Positions 5,382-13,606 are shown, numbered from the stretch's first letter. The stretch is 64,000 nt of DNA from Candidatus Nomurabacteria bacterium (GCA_023898465.1 CP060223.1:288001-352000), one strand, 5' to 3'. Notes: generated by a model not told the origin, from the sequence alone. Program-made: numbers and translations.

Positions 5382-5456
5382 GGCCCTATCGTCTAGTGGC
5401 TAGGACGCATGGTTCTCATCCATGTAACAGGGGTTCGATTCCCCTTAGGGCTACCA
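5382..5456 (+). tRNA. tRNA-Glu (anticodon CTC), CCA encoded
   Basis: Hand-folded cloverleaf. Acceptor GGCCCTA/TAGGGCT, D arm GTCT-AGTGGCTA-GGAC, anticodon stem CATGG/CCATG with loop TTCTCAT, T arm AGGGG-TTCGATT-CCCCT, discriminator A, then CCA. 75 nt. Confidence 0.93.
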
Positions 5457-7666: not shown

Positions 7667-10600
7667 ATGGACTCTGCCCCATTAACACTACAAACGAAGA
7701 CACTGCAGAGGTCTTCCGATCTAAATAATTACAGACTCTATCGCGCAGCTCTTGAATGGGAGTTGATTGATCCTATTGTCATAGAAGACCGGGATGACAT
7801 GCATTCCGAAAGTAGTTGGCGTGATCGTCTTGAGCCGTATCATCATCAAGTAACTAACCTAATAACTTTTTGTCGTCGCCTACCTGTTACTTTACTGGCG
7901 GATGATGTCGGGTTAGGAAAAACAATTAGTGCTGGCCTAGTTTTAAGCGAGTTAATTTCGCGCGGGAGAATTTCAAAAATATTAATAGTTTGCCCAAAAA
8001 TACTTCGAGATCAGTGGAAAGAAGAATTGGAAATAAAGTTCCGAATTCCGTCCACAATTGTGACAGGAAGAGAATTAATTACGGCAAAGCCTCCTGAAGA
8101 ACCAGGAGCGGTAATTACCACATACAATACGGCCAGACTGTATTTAGATAGAATTGACCAGAATGGTTTTGAAATATTGATACTTGATGAGGCGCATAAA
8201 TTGCGGAATCTATATGGTGTTGACCCAACACCTCAAGTTGCAATTAAATTCCGTAAAGCTCTGGCTGACCGGATGTTTAAGTACGTATTAATGTTAACTG
8301 CAACGCCGATCCAGAACAGACTATGGGATCTCTACTCGTTGGTTGACTTATTAACCGTTGCACGCGGCCATGAAAATCCCTTTGGAACGCCAGGTATTTT
8401 TGCGAGAAAATTTATTGCAGATAGTCGCACACAAGCGCGTCAGCTTAATCCGGAGATGCGGGATGAGTTTCGCTCAATTATTTACGGTTATATGTCTCGG
8501 GTTCGTCGTGGAGATGCAAAACTCCACTTCCCAGAGCGGGTAGTACAGTTGCATAAAGTTGACCCAACACCAGAAGAATTGCAGTTGATCGGTGTGGTCG
8601 GAAAATCTATACAACAACTGAATGCGCTTACACAAATTGTAATCCTCCAAGCTTTGGTGAGTAGTCCAGAAGCGCTAATAAAGATGTTAGAAGGAATGGC
8701 TAAAAAAGGAACCGTACCGCGTGAGGTGTTGGCGAACGTTAAGGAATCAGCCAAAGAAATTCAAATCACTACAAAACTAAAAGGTTTGGGCGCGTTAGTT
8801 GAAAAACTTAGAAAGGAGCAACCCAATACTTGGCGGGTGGTAGTTTTTACAAGATGGCGAGAAACTCAAACAACTATCGAAACTTTTCTTGAAAAGCAAG
8901 GAGTAAAATGCGGCTTGATAAATGGCGATTCAAGTAAGCGAAATCAGGAAACAATCCAAAGATTTAAAAAAGACTTACCAGACATTAATGTAATTATTTC
9001 TACTGAAGCAGGTTCGGAGGGCGTTAACCTTCAGGCCGCTAATGTTTTGGTTAATTACGATCTCCCCTGGAATCCAATGATAGTGGAACAAAGAATAGGT
9101 CGTATTCAAAGACTTGCTTCTAATTATGCAAATGTTTCTATTTTTAATATTGTTTTGCAAAATACCTTTGAAGAATATATTGTAGGGCGCTTGATGGAAA
9201 AGTTGCAGATGGCTTCTCATGCAATTGGGGATATTGAAGCACTATTGGAAGCATCCGGCATTGATGAAGGTGAAGAAAATGGCTCAAGTGGTTTTGAAGA
9301 AAAAATTCGCCAGTTAGTAGTTGCATCTTTAGCTGGAAAAGATGTTGAGCAGGCAACTCGTAAAGCTGAACAGAGTATTTCAGAAGCTAAAACAGAATTA
9401 GACCATGAAGAAAAGAACATTAATGCTTTACTTGGGGGGATGAGTGATTCTCTAGATTCTGGTCCAAGATGTCCGAAGCTTCCTCAAACTACTAAGTCGA
9501 TGGATGTCCGTGATTTTACTACGGCTGCTCTTATGAGCTTAGGCGCGGAACTACATCCAAAAAAGGATGGTTTATTAGTTTCACAACTTGCTGGGAAAAA
9601 AGAATTAATCCGATTTGATAATAACACTCTGAGCAGTGAAGAGGAGAGTGTCTTATATGCACCGGGAACTTCAACTTTTGAACGCTTAGTCCATAAAGTT
9701 GCAAATGTAGGAAAACACATTGTTGAAGACCTTGATAAAAACCCCCAACAGCAAATTGAGAAAGTAAGTCGTCAATGGGTCGAAAGTTTTGGCGGAGACT
9801 TCGAAAATGTAACGGTAGAGGACGTTTCTCGATGTTTTGCAGGAGTAGCAATAATTCGTGCAAGATCAACAGTAGCTCACGATAGTTATGAGCGTCTCAT
9901 TGAGGTTTCGTGCGCTCCCACTGAGCATTTCAGTTTTGTGACAAGAACGGGATTGGAACCCATCGGAGACTATATTGAAAATCCGACATCTGTTGGTGCG
10001 CTTTCAGAAAAATTAATTGAAAAAGCCAGCCAAGACTCGAGTATTCTTGAGTTCTGTAGATTTTATTTAGAACGAAGATCTCAAGAAATTGCCTCCGCAG
10101 GAAATGACGAAAGAAAAAAGAAAAAGCTTGAGGATGAGTTTACGCCCCGTCTTGAATTTTCCCTAGTCGGTCTTGAGGGCAAGGTTCATCGGATAGTTAA
10201 AAATCAGGTCTCTTATAGAATTGAACGTGAGGGCCAATACAAAAGTACCCTCATGATAACCCCCTCTTCTGGGCAAGTTGATATGCCGGGGATGGGACAA
10301 TGCATGAAAACAGGTAAGACTGTACCGAGCGATTGCTTAGCAAAGTGCGAAATAAGCGGACTTATAGTATTGCGGCATTTTCTTGATCAATCAGAGATCA
10401 GTAATCGACTGGCGCTCCCTGAGCACATCGTTTTATGTACGTTAAGCAACAAGCGAGTGCTAGCGGACGAAGCTATAAAATCAGATGTTACGGGCAAACT
10501 AGTCGCAAAGAAGTTTTTAAAAACATCTTCTCTGAGTGGCAAATTCGCTGAACCACAGTTCATTAACACTTGTGAGTTTACAAAAACAGAAGTTCTGGAA

Positions 10601-11194
10601 AGCGAAATTGCGGTCAGCCAGATTTCAGGAAAAAGATATCGCATTGATGAGCAACTTAAATCCGCAGTTTCAGGAAAACTAGGCCATCGACAAGAATTTG
10701 TAGCAAGTAGTATTTCATCAGCCCCACTTCTTGAAGAAGAAGCCATTCGTTCGGTCACTGGAAAATTTTGTGCACCAATGGAAGCGAGGCCCTGCACTTG
10801 GAGTGGTCGAAAGTGTCACCCCGAAGACCTTAGGACTTGCGAGTTGACCGGAGTCCAAATTCATTCAGAGTACGTAACGCTCGAACCACCAATTCGTTTA
10901 GAAACCCTAAATAATCTTTTGAATGGCACGAGGAGCAAATCTGACAAATTGGAAGTATGGCCTTCACTTTCAAATAGCGTTACAGCTTTATTAAAAGCAA
11001 AACGTTGTAAAATTGAAACAGCAGAAGTTTCACCTAGTGACGATATTTTGGCCGCTTCTATAGAGCTTCGAACTTTTCTAGGCCTGCGCGTGAGTCACAT
11101 TGGCGTACTTTATTCAATAAAGGATGGATCCGTAGTCGGGCGTGTTGCTAGAGGCAAGCGTGGTGATAAGGGCTGGAATCAAACTAAGAACTAA
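7667..11194 (+). CDS. SNF2-family ATPase/helicase with long C-terminal extension containing 13 tandem 15-aa repeats
   Basis: Motif I DDVGLGKT (GLGKT = aa 82-86), motif II DEAH (aa 174-177), motif III TATP, and motif VI QRIGRIQR (aa 475-482). About 690 further residues have no family I recognise. Low GC. Confidence 0.9.
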   Translation: MDSAPLTLQTKTLQRSSDLNNYRLYRAALEWELIDPIVIEDRDDMHSESSWRDRLEPYHHQVTNLITFCRRLPVTLLADDVGLGKTISAGLVLSELISRGRISKILIVCPKILRDQWKEELEIKFRIPSTIVTGRELITAKPPEEPGAVITTYNTARLYLDRIDQNGFEILILDEAHKLRNLYGVDPTPQVAIKFRKALADRMFKYVLMLTATPIQNRLWDLYSLVDLLTVARGHENPFGTPGIFARKFIADSRTQARQLNPEMRDEFRSIIYGYMSRVRRGDAKLHFPERVVQLHKVDPTPEELQLIGVVGKSIQQLNALTQIVILQALVSSPEALIKMLEGMAKKGTVPREVLANVKESAKEIQITTKLKGLGALVEKLRKEQPNTWRVVVFTRWRETQTTIETFLEKQGVKCGLINGDSSKRNQETIQRFKKDLPDINVIISTEAGSEGVNLQAANVLVNYDLPWNPMIVEQRIGRIQRLASNYANVSIFNIVLQNTFEEYIVGRLMEKLQMASHAIGDIEALLEASGIDEGEENGSSGFEEKIRQLVVASLAGKDVEQATRKAEQSISEAKTELDHEEKNINALLGGMSDSLDSGPRCPKLPQTTKSMDVRDFTTAALMSLGAELHPKKDGLLVSQLAGKKELIRFDNNTLSSEEESVLYAPGTSTFERLVHKVANVGKHIVEDLDKNPQQQIEKVSRQWVESFGGDFENVTVEDVSRCFAGVAIIRARSTVAHDSYERLIEVSCAPTEHFSFVTRTGLEPIGDYIENPTSVGALSEKLIEKASQDSSILEFCRFYLERRSQEIASAGNDERKKKKLEDEFTPRLEFSLVGLEGKVHRIVKNQVSYRIEREGQYKSTLMITPSSGQVDMPGMGQCMKTGKTVPSDCLAKCEISGLIVLRHFLDQSEISNRLALPEHIVLCTLSNKRVLADEAIKSDVTGKLVAKKFLKTSSLSGKFAEPQFINTCEFTKTEVLESEIAVSQISGKRYRIDEQLKSAVSGKLGHRQEFVASSISSAPLLEEEAIRSVTGKFCAPMEARPCTWSGRKCHPEDLRTCELTGVQIHSEYVTLEPPIRLETLNNLLNGTRSKSDKLEVWPSLSNSVTALLKAKRCKIETAEVSPSDDILAASIELRTFLGLRVSHIGVLYSIKDGSVVGRVARGKRGDKGWNQTKN
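10301..10882 (+). repeat. intragenic tandem array: 13 units of 15 codons (one unit has 14) inside the SNF2 gene
   Basis: The units, in order: CMKTGKTVPSDCLAK, CEISGLIVLRHFLDQ, SEISNRLALPEHIVL, CTLSNKRVLADEAIK, SDVTGKLVAKKFLKT, SSLSGKFAEPQFINT, CEFTKTEVLESEIAV, SQISGKRYRIDEQLK, SAVSGKLGHRQEFVA, SSISSAPLLEEEAIR, SVTGKFCAPMEARP, CTWSGRKCHPEDLRT, CELTGVQIHSEYVTL. Confidence 0.85.
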
Positions 11195-11195
11195 T

Positions 11196-12686
11196 ATGAA
11201 CCCTCTACTTACAAAAACCGATTATCTTCTTTACCGGGAATGCCCAAAGAATGTTTGGTATAAAATCCAAAAACCTGAATTGTATGCTACATCGGAGCTA
11301 ACAGAGTTTGAAAAATCGATAATGGAAACAGGTAATGAGGTTGAAAAGATTGCAAGGCAACTTTTTCCAAACGGGGTGTTAGTAACTTATCGTGATGCGC
11401 GCGGTCAAGCTGAGACACAAAAGCTATTGGCGGAGAACAAGGATGTGATTTTTCAGCCAGTTTTTGTCAAAAATAACTTTTTGGCTGCTATTGATGTTCT
11501 ACAAAAAGAAAAGAATGGCAAGGGCTACAATGTTTACGAAATAAAATCGACTAGTGATGTAGATAAGAAAACACATTTTCACGACCTAGCATTTCAAGTA
11601 AACGTTCTCAGAATGACAGGCCTGGGAATTAATAAATCATTTGTCATTCATCTAAACTCTGAATATATTCGAAAGGGAGAAATTGAGCTGGATCAGTTAT
11701 TTAAAGTATCAGATGTGACGGATGAAGTAGAAAGTCTTTTACCGGATGTTGCGACTGAGGCGGAAGAAGCATTGAAGTATATTAGCCAAACTTCTGAACC
11801 AGAGGGGTACTGCTGCTGTATTTATAAAGGTCGATCAAGGCATTGTTCAACCTTTCAGCTAGCGAACCCCGAAGTACCCGAATATAGTGTCCACGATATT
11901 TCTAGGATAGGGGTAAGCAAGGCTAAATTAAAAGAGCTAATTGACGGAAGTATTTTTCACCTGGACAAGATTCCGCCACACATTAAATTAAGCGAAATTC
12001 AACAAGGTCAAGTTGAAACCTATAAATTGAATAAGGTATTAGTAGATAAGGAAAGAATTGCGGAAGAATTTAGTGGTCTCACATTCCCACTTTATTTTCT
12101 TGATTATGAAACATTTCCATCAGCAATACCAAGATATGATGGCTTTTCACCATATAAACAAATTCCGTTCCAGTATTCTGTTTACAAACTAGATTCAGTC
12201 GAGAGTGAGCCAACTCATTTTGATTTTTTGTACTCTGGTCCCGAAGACCCCAGCAAGCACTTTGCCGAGTCTTTAAGGGAACATATCGGGGATAAAGGCT
12301 CGATCATCGTTTGGCATAAAGACTTCGAGTGTGGCAGAAATAATGAAATAGGTAGTCGAATTCCTACTTCGAAGGCTTTTTTTGACTCTGTTAATCAGCG
12401 AGTATACGATCTCGAAGACATTTTCAAGAAACAATACCACGTTCATCGAGATTATAAGGGAAGCACATCTATTAAAAACGTATTGCCTGTTTTAGTGCCA
12501 GAATTAACGTATAAAGACCTTGAAATTCGTGATGGTGGCAGTGCAGCGGATAGTTGGGACAAAATAATTAGTGGTGTATATAACGAGACAGAGAAAGAAA
12601 AGGTAATAAAAGATTTAAAGATTTATTGTGGTCTTGATACATTTGCAATGTATGCTATTTGGAATTGCTTGAACAAGCTACTCTAA
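11196..12686 (+). CDS. DUF2779-type protein: Cas4-like PD-(D/E)xK nuclease fused to a DEDDy-like 3'-5' exonuclease domain
   Basis: ATG lies 1 nt after the SNF2 stop. N-terminus TKTDYLLYRECPKNVWYK, then D100...E115-I-K117 (AAIDVL...YEIKS). Cys set C16 plus C206-C207-C208...C217. C-terminal half has FLDYET (D303/E305), WHKDFE (D376) and Y477-CGL-D481. Confidence 0.7.
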   Translation: MNPLLTKTDYLLYRECPKNVWYKIQKPELYATSELTEFEKSIMETGNEVEKIARQLFPNGVLVTYRDARGQAETQKLLAENKDVIFQPVFVKNNFLAAIDVLQKEKNGKGYNVYEIKSTSDVDKKTHFHDLAFQVNVLRMTGLGINKSFVIHLNSEYIRKGEIELDQLFKVSDVTDEVESLLPDVATEAEEALKYISQTSEPEGYCCCIYKGRSRHCSTFQLANPEVPEYSVHDISRIGVSKAKLKELIDGSIFHLDKIPPHIKLSEIQQGQVETYKLNKVLVDKERIAEEFSGLTFPLYFLDYETFPSAIPRYDGFSPYKQIPFQYSVYKLDSVESEPTHFDFLYSGPEDPSKHFAESLREHIGDKGSIIVWHKDFECGRNNEIGSRIPTSKAFFDSVNQRVYDLEDIFKKQYHVHRDYKGSTSIKNVLPVLVPELTYKDLEIRDGGSAADSWDKIISGVYNETEKEKVIKDLKIYCGLDTFAMYAIWNCLNKLL

Positions 12687-12690
12687 ACCT

Positions 12691-13392
12691 ATGAGCTTTC
12701 TTAAGATTTTTAGTGATGATTCTAAAGACAAGCCAAAAGAAAATGATAGTCGGAAACCTGAATGTCCATACTGTCAGGGCGTTTTAGTTAAAATTCCTGC
12801 TAGAAAAACAAAATGTTTTCACTGTGGGAAATATATTTTTGTACGAACACAGACAAAGGACAGAAAGCTCGTTTTGGTTACTGAAGAAAATTCGGCCGCG
12901 ATAGACTCTGAATGGGAGTCAAAACAAGCCGCTACGATCACTTCATTGGTGGAGAAAGTAGATTTTACAAAGAAAAAAGAAGGTCTGCGCGAAGGGTTTG
13001 GGGACAAGGAACCCTCCGTTAGTGACATAAAGTGGGGCTTGTGGAACAAGAGGCTTCAGGAAGCAATGAAACGCAATGATTTTTCAGAACTTTCAGGAAT
13101 ATATTTTCAAATGGCTCTGCGCTTGCACGAAAGTGGAAAAGACAGCTTTAAACTTCAGGGCCAGGCTCAAAAAATGTTTTTGTTTAAAGAAAAGCAAAGC
13201 GGTGTTGTTTCTAGCGTAGAGGTTTTTTCTAGAGATGGCTGTGAAGAATGTAAGAAAATAAACGGAAAGAAATTTGTTATTTTTGAAGCACTAAAACTCA
13301 TGCCACTACCCGTTCAATCCTGCACAAACAAACTGAATAAGAATGCGCCCAATGGTTGGTGTCGATGCACTTTTCTTCCTTTTATAGATTAA
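12691..13392 (+). CDS. zinc-ribbon protein with C-terminal CxxC...C...CxC module
   Basis: Starts 4 nt after the previous stop. N-terminal CPYC-x17-CFHC ribbon, a helical middle, then the C-terminal CEECKKINGKKF...LPVQSC...NGWCRCTFLP. Confidence 0.7.
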   Translation: MSFLKIFSDDSKDKPKENDSRKPECPYCQGVLVKIPARKTKCFHCGKYIFVRTQTKDRKLVLVTEENSAAIDSEWESKQAATITSLVEKVDFTKKKEGLREGFGDKEPSVSDIKWGLWNKRLQEAMKRNDFSELSGIYFQMALRLHESGKDSFKLQGQAQKMFLFKEKQSGVVSSVEVFSRDGCEECKKINGKKFVIFEALKLMPLPVQSCTNKLNKNAPNGWCRCTFLPFID

Positions 13393-13546: not shown

Positions 13547-13575
13547 TTGACAGGGCTTTTTTGTTATACTATTCT
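13547..13575 (+). promoter_or_regulatory. sigma70-type promoter of the hrcA operon
   Basis: TTGACA (13547-13552), 17-nt spacer, TATTCT (13570-13575). Sits immediately upstream of the CIRCE element. Confidence 0.6.
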
Positions 13576-13579
13576 TGTT

Positions 13580-13606
13580 TTAGCACTCAAATATTGAGAG
13601 TGCTAA
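13580..13606 (+). promoter_or_regulatory. CIRCE operator (HrcA binding site)
   Basis: TTAGCACTC-AAATATTGA-GAGTGCTAA is a perfect match to the consensus TTAGCACTC-N9-GAGTGCTAA. It ends 9 nt before the hrcA ATG. Confidence 0.95.

What the first reader, a model, noticed from the sequence alone, without database searches (positions are those of the whole stretch)
11196..12686. One polypeptide with two different nuclease folds: Cas4-like Fe-S PD-(D/E)xK plus a DEDDy-type exonuclease
SEEN: the N-terminal half has AAID(100)VL...YE(115)IK(117)S. It also has one N-terminal Cys (C16 in ECPKN) and a distal cluster C206-C207-C208-x8-C217. ESTABLISHED: this is the layout of the 4Fe-4S cluster nucleases Cas4 and AddB. 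SEEN: the C-terminal half has FLD(303)YE(305)T, WHKD(376)FE and Y(477)CGLD(481). ESTABLISHED: these residues sit in the order and spacing of the ExoI, ExoII and ExoIII (Y-x3-D) motifs of DEDDy 3'-5' exonucleases. The opening TKTDYLLYRECPKNVWYK resembles the start of DUF2779 proteins as I remember them. INFERENCE: the protein could process DNA ends from both polarities. Coupled to the SNF2 motor, it would be the effector of the island.
Basis: partly seen in the sequence, partly recalled or inferred. Interest (0 to 1): 0.6.

Follow-up and report, generated by a model that had tools for sequence, protein, structure and literature searches.

The report
Two-nuclease protein paired with SNF2 motor
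The gene encodes a protein of the widespread but untested DUF2779 family, which joins a Cas4-like nuclease to a proofreading-type exonuclease; that design is already published, but here it sits in an imported gene block as the regular partner of an SNF2 DNA motor.

Summary

Three corrections apply. The ExoII acid is E378, not D376. C207 is not conserved. Pfam DUF2779 covers residues 300-425, not the N-terminus.

The two-nuclease architecture is already published, in silico only (Majorek 2014; mSphere 2026, MMSYN1_0389). This protein is therefore a new member of a known, uncharacterised family.

The parts
11196..12686 (+). Gene for the 496-aa DUF2779-family dual nuclease. The stop codon is at 12684-12686. 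The ATG lies 1 nt after the SNF2 stop codon.
   Evidence: Orthologues of 496 aa align from residue 1.
11196..11870 (+). N-terminal Cas4/RecB-like PD-(D/E)xK nuclease domain, about residues 1-225. Catalytic D100 is at 11493-11495 and E115-x-K117 at 11538-11546. Q134 is also conserved.
11241..11846 (+). Putative [4Fe-4S] ligands: C16 (11241-11243) and C206/C208/C217 (11811-11846). The layout is one N-terminal Cys plus a distal C-x-C-x8-C.
   Evidence: 74/116 homologues have C16 plus at least 3 distal Cys. The sister TM0106-type proteins have the canonical C...C-x2-C-x5-C. Cluster binding itself was not tested.
11871..12080 (+). Linker or helical region, about residues 226-295. It is poorly modelled (pLDDT 45-55) and its role is unknown.
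12081..12683 (+). C-terminal DnaQ-like DEDDy 3'-5' exonuclease domain, about residues 296-496. ExoI is D303-x-E305 (12102-12110). ExoII is E378 (12327-12329). ExoIII is Y477-x3-D481 (12624-12638). D405 and K427 are additional invariant residues.
7667..11194 (+). SNF2-family ATPase of 1,175 aa. Its helicase motifs are intact (GLGKT, DEAH, QRIGRIQR). It carries a conserved Cys-rich C-terminal region of about 650 aa with no known domain. It is the operon partner of the nuclease.
   Evidence: Orthologues have a dual nuclease adjacent or fused in 48 of 54 evaluable loci.
12691..13392 (+). 233-aa ORF, the third gene of the island. It has an N-terminal Zn ribbon (CPYC...CxHC), a TPR-like helical core and a C-terminal Cys motif (CEEC...C...CRC). 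It belongs to a very rare family that recurs next to DUF2779 genes.
7667..13392 (.). Low-GC island (GC 0.34-0.46, against 0.48-0.55 in the flanks). It consists of exactly these three genes, inserted between a glycosyltransferase gene and the hrcA-grpE-dnaK operon.
   Evidence: The flanking genes are housekeeping. No flanking repeats were found.

Best explanation
The ORF encodes a member of the DUF2779 family, a bipartite nuclease.

Anatomy. Residues ~1-225 form a Cas4/RecB-type PD-(D/E)xK nuclease (D100, E115, K117) with four cysteines placed as in the [4Fe-4S] nucleases. Residues ~296-496 form a DnaQ-like DEDDy 3'-5' exonuclease (D303, E305, E378, Y477, D481).

Proposed mechanism (inferred). 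The nuclease is a portable effector cassette. An ATP-driven DNA motor, here SNF2, finds or tracks along target DNA and delivers the nuclease. Its two active sites of opposite inherent polarity then degrade both strands from a break or end: 5'-3' or endonucleolytic for the Cas4-like site, and 3'-5' for the DEDDy site.

Likely biological role. Restriction-like defence against incoming DNA is somewhat more likely than accessory DNA repair.

Shown here: folds, conserved catalytic residues, synteny and fusion, compositional island.
Inferred only: Fe-S binding, nuclease polarities, physical coupling to SNF2, and the defence role.
For: Folds and residues.

Full-length homology to the TM0106 (TIGR03491) PDDEXK+RNase_H_2 nucleases, with the same catalytic constellation including the ExoII Glu: hhalign probability 99.45%, E 5e-22.

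Island: GC drops from about 0.50 to about 0.40 exactly over 7667-13392.

Operon: a 1-nt gap between the SNF2 stop codon and the nuclease ATG.

Reciprocal synteny: of 80 metagenomic SNF2 orthologues, 24 have a DUF2779 gene and 24 a TM0106-type gene adjacent. Four of the latter are fused to the SNF2 N-terminus. 26 loci have too short a flank to judge. Only 6 evaluable loci lack a dual nuclease. SNF2 and nuclease identities co-vary across loci: 74/68, 63/41, 57/51 and 53/49 %.

Mobile or defence neighbourhoods of the module elsewhere: integrase, RmuC, a SIR2-like protein, GmrSD, a caspase-like protein and a ParB-methylase. On plasmids the neighbours include GHKL, STAND and AAA+ ATPases, PLD nucleases, DEAD helicases, a WYL protein, SbcCD and dGTPase.
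Against: No biochemistry exists for any DUF2779 protein.

Most DUF2779 genes in Patescibacteria have no NTPase neighbour. They lie among housekeeping genes such as DsbA-like, rpoD, dnaG and dnaQ-like genes. Only 6 of 80 nuclease-anchored loci carry this SNF2.

The family is quasi-essential in JCVI-syn3.0 and was hit in a Mycoplasma bovis growth screen. Both point to a housekeeping role for at least some members.

The proteins are unusually well conserved for defence genes (57-70% identity across candidate phyla).

No known defence-system model matches the nuclease beyond Cas4, and the SNF2 scores below every curated cutoff.

SNF2 enzymes translocate on duplex DNA without unwinding it (established knowledge). 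How they would feed exonucleases that need single-stranded ends is therefore unclear.

The Cys spacing (C-x-C-x8-C) differs from canonical Cas4, and the AF2 model is weak there (pLDDT 60-70).
Confidence: 0.6

Rival explanations
1. The protein is a housekeeping or accessory DNA repair and recombination enzyme. In this reading the dual nuclease, with a motor partner when one is present, resects double-strand breaks or removes lesions. It would be a functional analogue of AddAB/RecBCD or of the MrfA-MrfB helicase-exonuclease pair, in small genomes that lack those systems. The island would simply be a transferred repair module.
For: The family member MMSYN1_0389 is quasi-essential in the minimal cell. 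A transposon hit in M. bovis Mbov_0804 appears in the same table as DnaB, HolA and RecD. A large Patescibacteria clade has no NTPase partner and lies in conserved housekeeping synteny near dnaG, rpoD, dnaQ-like and DinG-like genes. Sequence conservation is high. RmuC and DUF2130, which are recombination-associated families, lie next to the module in several loci. The closest solved exonuclease fold includes the repair enzyme MrfB.
Confidence: 0.3
2. The protein acts on RNA or on short oligonucleotides, for example in processing or turnover like RNase D, RNase T or Orn. In this reading the SNF2 adjacency is incidental or regulatory.
Against: The strongest structural matches are DNA exonucleases: family-B polymerase exo domains, MrfB, Pol III epsilon and TREX1. 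The N-terminal domain matches DNA nucleases: Cas4, MGME1, Dna2 and RecE. All recurrent partners are DNA translocases, helicases or restriction subunits.
Confidence: 0.05
3. It is a bona fide CRISPR-associated Cas4 that trims prespacers during adaptation.
For: The fold and catalytic motif match Cas4.
Confidence: 0.02

Closest known systems
DUF2779 / PF11074 family, e.g. [quoted passage not shown] 2014, PMC3985635)
   Same: The window protein has the same two-domain architecture and full-length collinear homology to this family. It has the same D..ExK motif and the same DEDD set with Tyr in place of His. It is a member by Pfam score.
   Different: The window protein keeps four Cys, whereas MMSYN1_0389 has only two. 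It is shorter (496 aa; in the Mycoplasma protein the exonuclease domain starts near residue 460). It scores below the cutoff of the NCBIfam UU173 subfamily (75 against 225 bits). Here it lies in an imported island with an SNF2 partner, a context the papers do not mention.
TM0106 family RecB-like putative nuclease (TIGR03491 / COG2251; PDDEXK_1 + RNase_H_2 PF13482)
   Same: It is homologous over the whole length (hhalign 99.45%, E 5e-22). Both have an N-terminal Cys, D..(D/E)xK, a distal Cys cluster, DxE, an ExoII Glu and Y-x3-D. It occupies the same position next to, or fused with, the same SNF2 orthologues.
   Different: It is a separate sequence family: the window protein does not hit TIGR03491. 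TM0106-type proteins have the canonical C-x2-C-x5-C spacing and are often fused to an SF1 helicase. They are also uncharacterised.
Cas4 (SSO0001 4ic1; Pcal_0546 4r5q; Cas4-Cas1 7mi4)
   Different: There is no CRISPR or cas context. The Cys spacing differs. It is fused to a second nuclease. It does not reach the Cas4 sequence models.
MrfA-MrfB of Bacillus subtilis (helicase + DEDDh exonuclease, mitomycin C repair; MrfB structure 8un9)
   Different: MrfB is DEDDh and has no PD-(D/E)xK domain. MrfA is a DExH/Lhr-type helicase, not an SNF2 protein. MrfAB is chromosomal and repair-dedicated.
AddAB / RecBCD / AdnAB helicase-nucleases
   Same: This is a functional analogy: motor(s) plus nuclease activities for both strand polarities. 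AddB carries a Fe-S RecB-type nuclease, as the N-terminal half here may.
   Different: Those enzymes use two RecB-type domains, or one, rather than a RecB-type domain plus a DEDD domain. Their motors are SF1 helicases that unwind DNA, not SNF2 translocases. There is no sequence-level membership.
SNF2-plus-nuclease defence components (ZorD of Zorya; DrmD of DISARM; BrxHI; DpdE)
   Same: The SNF2 core resembles these proteins (E 1e-20 to 1e-63). The idea of a translocase coupled to a nuclease effector is shared.
   Different: All scores are far below the curated cutoffs (for example DrmD 215 against 610 bits). The other genes of those systems are absent. The nuclease type here, Cas4-like plus DEDDy, is not part of any of them.

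Membership tests
DUF2779 (Pfam PF11074) family | Match to the Pfam model above the gathering score | tested here: met
   The protein scores 123.5 bits against a cutoff of 23.3, E 7.9e-36, over residues 300-425, covering the model end to end.
DUF2779 (Pfam PF11074) family | Full-length collinear homology, including the N-terminal Cas4-like half, to other family members | tested here: met
   2,358 hits were found, with 99-100% coverage among the 120 listed. More than 100 representatives at 31-53% identity align across residues 4-495.
UU173 family (NCBIfam NF045869, Mollicutes-type DUF2779 proteins) | Score above the curated cutoff | tested here: not met
   The protein scores 75.4 bits against a cutoff of 225, and only the C-terminal part aligns.
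Cas4 (CRISPR-associated) | Match to the Cas4 sequence models (PF01930, TIGR00372) | tested here: not met
   Neither model is listed for this protein at E<=1. A PADLOC Cas4 model gives E 4.6e-7. 17 of 100 relatives hit PF01930.
Cas4 (CRISPR-associated) | RecB-like PD-(D/E)xK fold with the D...ExK catalytic residues | tested here: met
   [not shown]
Cas4 (CRISPR-associated) | Four Cys ligands of a [4Fe-4S] cluster (one N-terminal, then C-x2-C-x5-C) | tested here: inconclusive
   Four Cys are present (C16, C206, C208, C217), but the spacing is C-x-C-x8-C. 74/116 relatives keep at least 4 Cys. Cluster binding cannot be tested with these tools.
Cas4 (CRISPR-associated) | Encoded with cas1/cas2 or next to a CRISPR array | tested here: not met
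   The window contains no tandem repeats. The neighbours are an SNF2 gene, an unknown ORF and housekeeping genes.
DEDDy (DnaQ-like) 3'-5' exonucleases | RNase H-like exonuclease fold | tested here: met
   [not shown]
DEDDy (DnaQ-like) 3'-5' exonucleases | ExoI D-x-E, an ExoII acidic residue, and ExoIII Y-x3-D | tested here: met
   D303, E305, Y477 and D481 are invariant. The ExoII acid is an invariant Glu (E378) rather than Asp, and D376 is not conserved. The same Glu is found in the TM0106 sister family.
DEDDy (DnaQ-like) 3'-5' exonucleases | Metal-dependent 3'-5' exonuclease activity | not testable with these tools
   This needs a purified protein assay.
TM0106 family RecB-like nuclease (TIGR03491) | Match to TIGR03491 above the cutoff | tested here: not met
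   The model is not listed for the window protein. The sister family is homologous by profile-profile comparison (99.45%).
Known SNF2-containing defence systems (DISARM, Zorya, BREX, Dpd) | The SNF2 protein reaches the equivalog cutoff and the system's other genes are present | tested here: not met
   DrmD scores 215 against 610 bits, DpdE 171 against 500, and ZorD 73 against 1500. No other components are among the neighbours.

The most novel reading that the evidence does not exclude
Probability: 0.4. Interest if true: 0.65.

Novelty: new member of a known kind. Interest (0 to 1): 0.4.

Why it matters
DUF2779 proteins are very numerous: 7,613 clusters at 50% identity. One is quasi-essential in the minimal cell JCVI-syn3.0. 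None has been characterised biochemically.

This work shows that, in one lineage, the protein is the regular and sometimes fused partner of a specific SNF2 ATPase. It also shows that near-identical copies are wired to restriction-type partners. That gives a concrete, testable hypothesis for the family: a bipolar nuclease effector driven by a DNA motor. It also identifies a compact three-gene block suitable for heterologous tests. For the scan itself, the headline feature, two nuclease folds in one chain, is real but already in the literature.

Tried and rejected
- Sequence searches of the protein and of a 116-sequence profile against PDB sequences gave nothing significant. One sub-threshold hit was suggestive: the ExoII-like motif VIVYNQSFE of a Pol I-like polymerase (9qhs_A), E 0.84.
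- A tblastn search against 50,697 phage genomes found no match, so there is no evidence that the gene is phage-borne.
- The exact-sequence look-up failed because public gene calls use a GTG start at 11160 (508 aa).
- A search for att-like direct repeats or inverted repeats flanking the island found only short chance-level matches.
- The promoter and terminator scan found no more sites than in shuffled sequence.
- No CRISPR or tandem repeats are present in the window, and there is no second copy of the nuclease or the SNF2 gene. The CRISPR-adaptation reading is therefore rejected.
- The 233-aa ORF has no Pfam or NCBIfam hit. Its AF2 model (pLDDT 72) matches only generic TPR-like helical repeats, so no function is assigned.
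- The idea that the SNF2 belongs to DISARM, Zorya, BREX or Dpd is rejected on curated cutoffs and missing partner genes.
- The idea that the 233-aa ORF is an obligatory third subunit is rejected. It is absent from the 80 SNF2 loci and occurs in only a few DUF2779 contexts.
- Literature searches for any paper linking SNF2 with Cas4-like/DEDD nucleases, or mentioning PF11074, PF13482 or TIGR03491 in a defence context, found none.

Full report
**1. The observation**

The ORF at 11196-12686 (+) is real and translates to 496 aa. The ATG lies 1 nt after the stop codon of the upstream 1,175-aa gene. Public assemblies of the same locus call a 508-aa product from a GTG at 11160. Orthologues of 496 aa align from residue 1, so ATG 11196 is the better start.

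**2. Family**

- Pfam places residues 300-425 in PF11074 (DUF2779), E 7.9e-36.
- NCBIfam gives only a sub-threshold partial match to the UU173 family.
- A PADLOC Cas4 model matches residues 12-182, E 4.6e-7.
- The family is very large. There are 2,358 hits among the 8,000 scored candidates at 90% clustering. An exhaustive HMMER scan finds 7,613 representatives at 50% clustering, 2,053 of them at E<=1e-30, and nearly all top hits align over residues 4-495.
The Pfam model covers the exonuclease half, but the N-terminal opening is indeed the family consensus.

**3. Conservation**

In 116 representatives at 31-53% identity:
- D303, E305, E378, K427, Y477 and D481 are invariant.
- D100 (115/116), E115 (113/116), K117 (114/116), Q134, Y157, C208 and D405 are at least 90% conserved.
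- D376 is not conserved; the column is mostly Ser or Thr.
- E378 lies at the start of the helix that follows strand 4 in the model, which is where the ExoII acid sits in DnaQ-like exonucleases. The DEDDy set is therefore D303-E305-E378-Y477-D481, with Glu at ExoII.
- Cysteines: C16 93/116, C206 50/116, C207 not conserved, C208 106/116, C217 102/116.
- 74/116 sequences have C16 plus at least three distal Cys. The commonest spacing is C-x-C-x8-C.

**4. Folds**

An AF2 model built from 30 homologues has mean pLDDT 80. The two cores score above 85 and the 210-290 linker scores 45-60.

Foldseek against the PDB ranks Cas4 (4r5q, 7mi4) and MGME1 first, and Pol III epsilon lower.

At the sequence level, 30 of 100 relatives also hit Pfam RNase_H_2 and 17 of 100 hit Cas_Cas4.

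**5. Already known**

Majorek et al. 2014 placed DUF2779 in the 3'-5' exonuclease clade of the RNase H-like superfamily (family F.17). They noted its co-occurrence with DUF83, a PD-(D/E)xK domain. A 2026 mSphere paper describes MMSYN1_0389 of JCVI-syn3.0, a DUF2779 protein, as a Cas4-like nuclease fused to a DEDD nuclease with Tyr in place of His. It reports the gene as quasi-essential, and all of this is in silico. A transposon insertion in the M. bovis homologue appeared in a growth screen. I found no biochemical study.

**6. Local context**

- Upstream flank: housekeeping genes (a class II aminoacyl-tRNA synthetase, ScpA/B, TIM, GAPDH, tRNA-Glu and a GT4 glycosyltransferase).
- Downstream flank: hrcA-grpE-hsp20-dnaK-dnaJ.
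- GC falls from 0.48-0.55 to 0.34-0.46 exactly over 7667-13392. That stretch holds three genes: the SNF2 gene, the nuclease and a 233-aa ORF.
- No flanking repeats, integrase or CRISPR array were found.
- The 233-aa ORF is 100% identical to an NCBI hypothetical protein of a Candidatus Nomurabacteria MAG on a 1.08-Mb contig. This identifies the source genome.

**7. Coupling to SNF2**

Anchoring on the nuclease: only 6 of the 80 best genome loci carry this SNF2. It lies upstream in Uhrbacteria and Giovannonibacteria and downstream in Terriglobales. About 11 loci carry a 1,600-aa SF1 helicase with an MTES_1575 endonuclease domain. Most of the rest are in variable, housekeeping-like surroundings.

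Anchoring on the SNF2 gives a very different picture. Of 80 metagenomic orthologues (53-74% identity over the full length):
- 24 have a DUF2779 gene adjacent on the same strand.
- 24 have a ~500-aa PDDEXK_1 + RNase_H_2 protein of the TM0106/TIGR03491 family. Four of these are fused to the SNF2 N-terminus, and some are fused to an SF1 helicase.
- 26 have a flank that is too short to judge.
- Only 6 evaluable loci have neither.

The two nuclease families are homologous end to end (hhalign 99.45%, E 5e-22). They share the catalytic set, including the ExoII Glu. SNF2 and nuclease identities co-vary across loci. This is strong genomic evidence that this SNF2 type works with a dual nuclease.

**8. 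Partner swapping and neighbourhoods**

- Elsewhere the SNF2-nuclease pair lies next to an integrase, RmuC, a 1,192-aa SIR2-like protein, GmrSD, a caspase-like protein and a ParB-methylase.
- On 29 plasmids, DUF2779 genes neighbour GHKL, STAND and AAA+ ATPases, PLD nucleases, DEAD helicases, a WYL protein, SbcCD and dGTPase.
- No phage genome carries the gene.

**9. Interpretation**

Shown: a bipartite protein with two intact, conserved nuclease active sites of different folds; a probable four-Cys metal cluster site; membership of DUF2779; location in an imported block; and a conserved, sometimes fused, partnership with one SNF2 lineage.

Inferred: the Cas4-like site cuts 5'-3' or endonucleolytically and the DEDDy site cuts 3'-5'. 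Together they could remove both strands at an end while an ATP-driven motor supplies targeting or processivity.

Whether the role is defence or repair is open. The island, the restriction-type partners and the defence-island neighbours favour defence for this lineage. The quasi-essentiality in Mycoplasma, the solo housekeeping clade and the high conservation favour a maintenance role for the family at large. I put defence at about 0.45-0.5 and repair at about 0.3 for this locus.

**10. Verdict**

The finding is accurate and its interpretation is largely right, but the headline is not new. I classify the protein as a new member of a known, uncharacterised kind. The added value is the SNF2-dual-nuclease module and the evidence that the nuclease is a portable cassette. 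I found neither described in the searchable literature.

Noticed in passing
[not shown]
   Followed up: partly
[not shown]
   Followed up: partly
L153 2260-7575, L156 780-6095, L160 3390-8666 (also L158): These are natural single-chain fusions of a TM0106-type PD-(D/E)xK + RNase_H_2 dual nuclease (N-terminal ~540 aa) to the same SNF2 orthologue, giving proteins of about 1,770 aa.
   Followed up: partly
window 9400-11194 (SNF2 residues ~580-1175): The SNF2 protein has a C-terminal extension of about 600-650 aa with no Pfam domain. It is conserved at 52-74% identity from Patescibacteria to Terriglobales. It contains repeated short Cys / S-G-K motifs (e.g. CEISG..., VTGK, LSGK, ISGK, VSGK), and the Terriglobales proteins carry extra repeat units in this region. 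It may be the docking or DNA-binding part.
   Followed up: no
window 13580-13606: A perfect CIRCE-type inverted repeat, TTAGCACTC-N9-GAGTGCTAA, lies just upstream of hrcA (13616), preceded by a TTGACA-like promoter match at 13547. This is the expected HrcA operator of the hrcA-grpE-dnaK operon.
   Followed up: no
L001-L080 (e.g. L069 3191-7987, L071, L079, L020, L016); L167 2280-6833: A ~1,600-aa SF1 (AAA_11/AAA_12) helicase with a C-terminal MTES_1575 endonuclease domain is the immediate neighbour of DUF2779 genes in about 11 of 80 Patescibacteria loci. It matches the PADLOC candidate PDC-S37 and the Hhe and MkoC models.
   Followed up: partly
window 5382-5456: A tRNA-Glu (CTC) gene lies 2.2 kb upstream of the island. 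It is separated from the island by a 179-aa ORF and the GT4 gene, both of normal GC content, so it is probably not the integration site.
   Followed up: no
window 11196 vs 11160/11142: Public gene calls for the nuclease start at a GTG 36 nt upstream, giving 508 aa and overlapping the SNF2 gene. This is why the exact-sequence look-up of the 496-aa product failed. Homologue alignments favour ATG 11196.
   Followed up: yes
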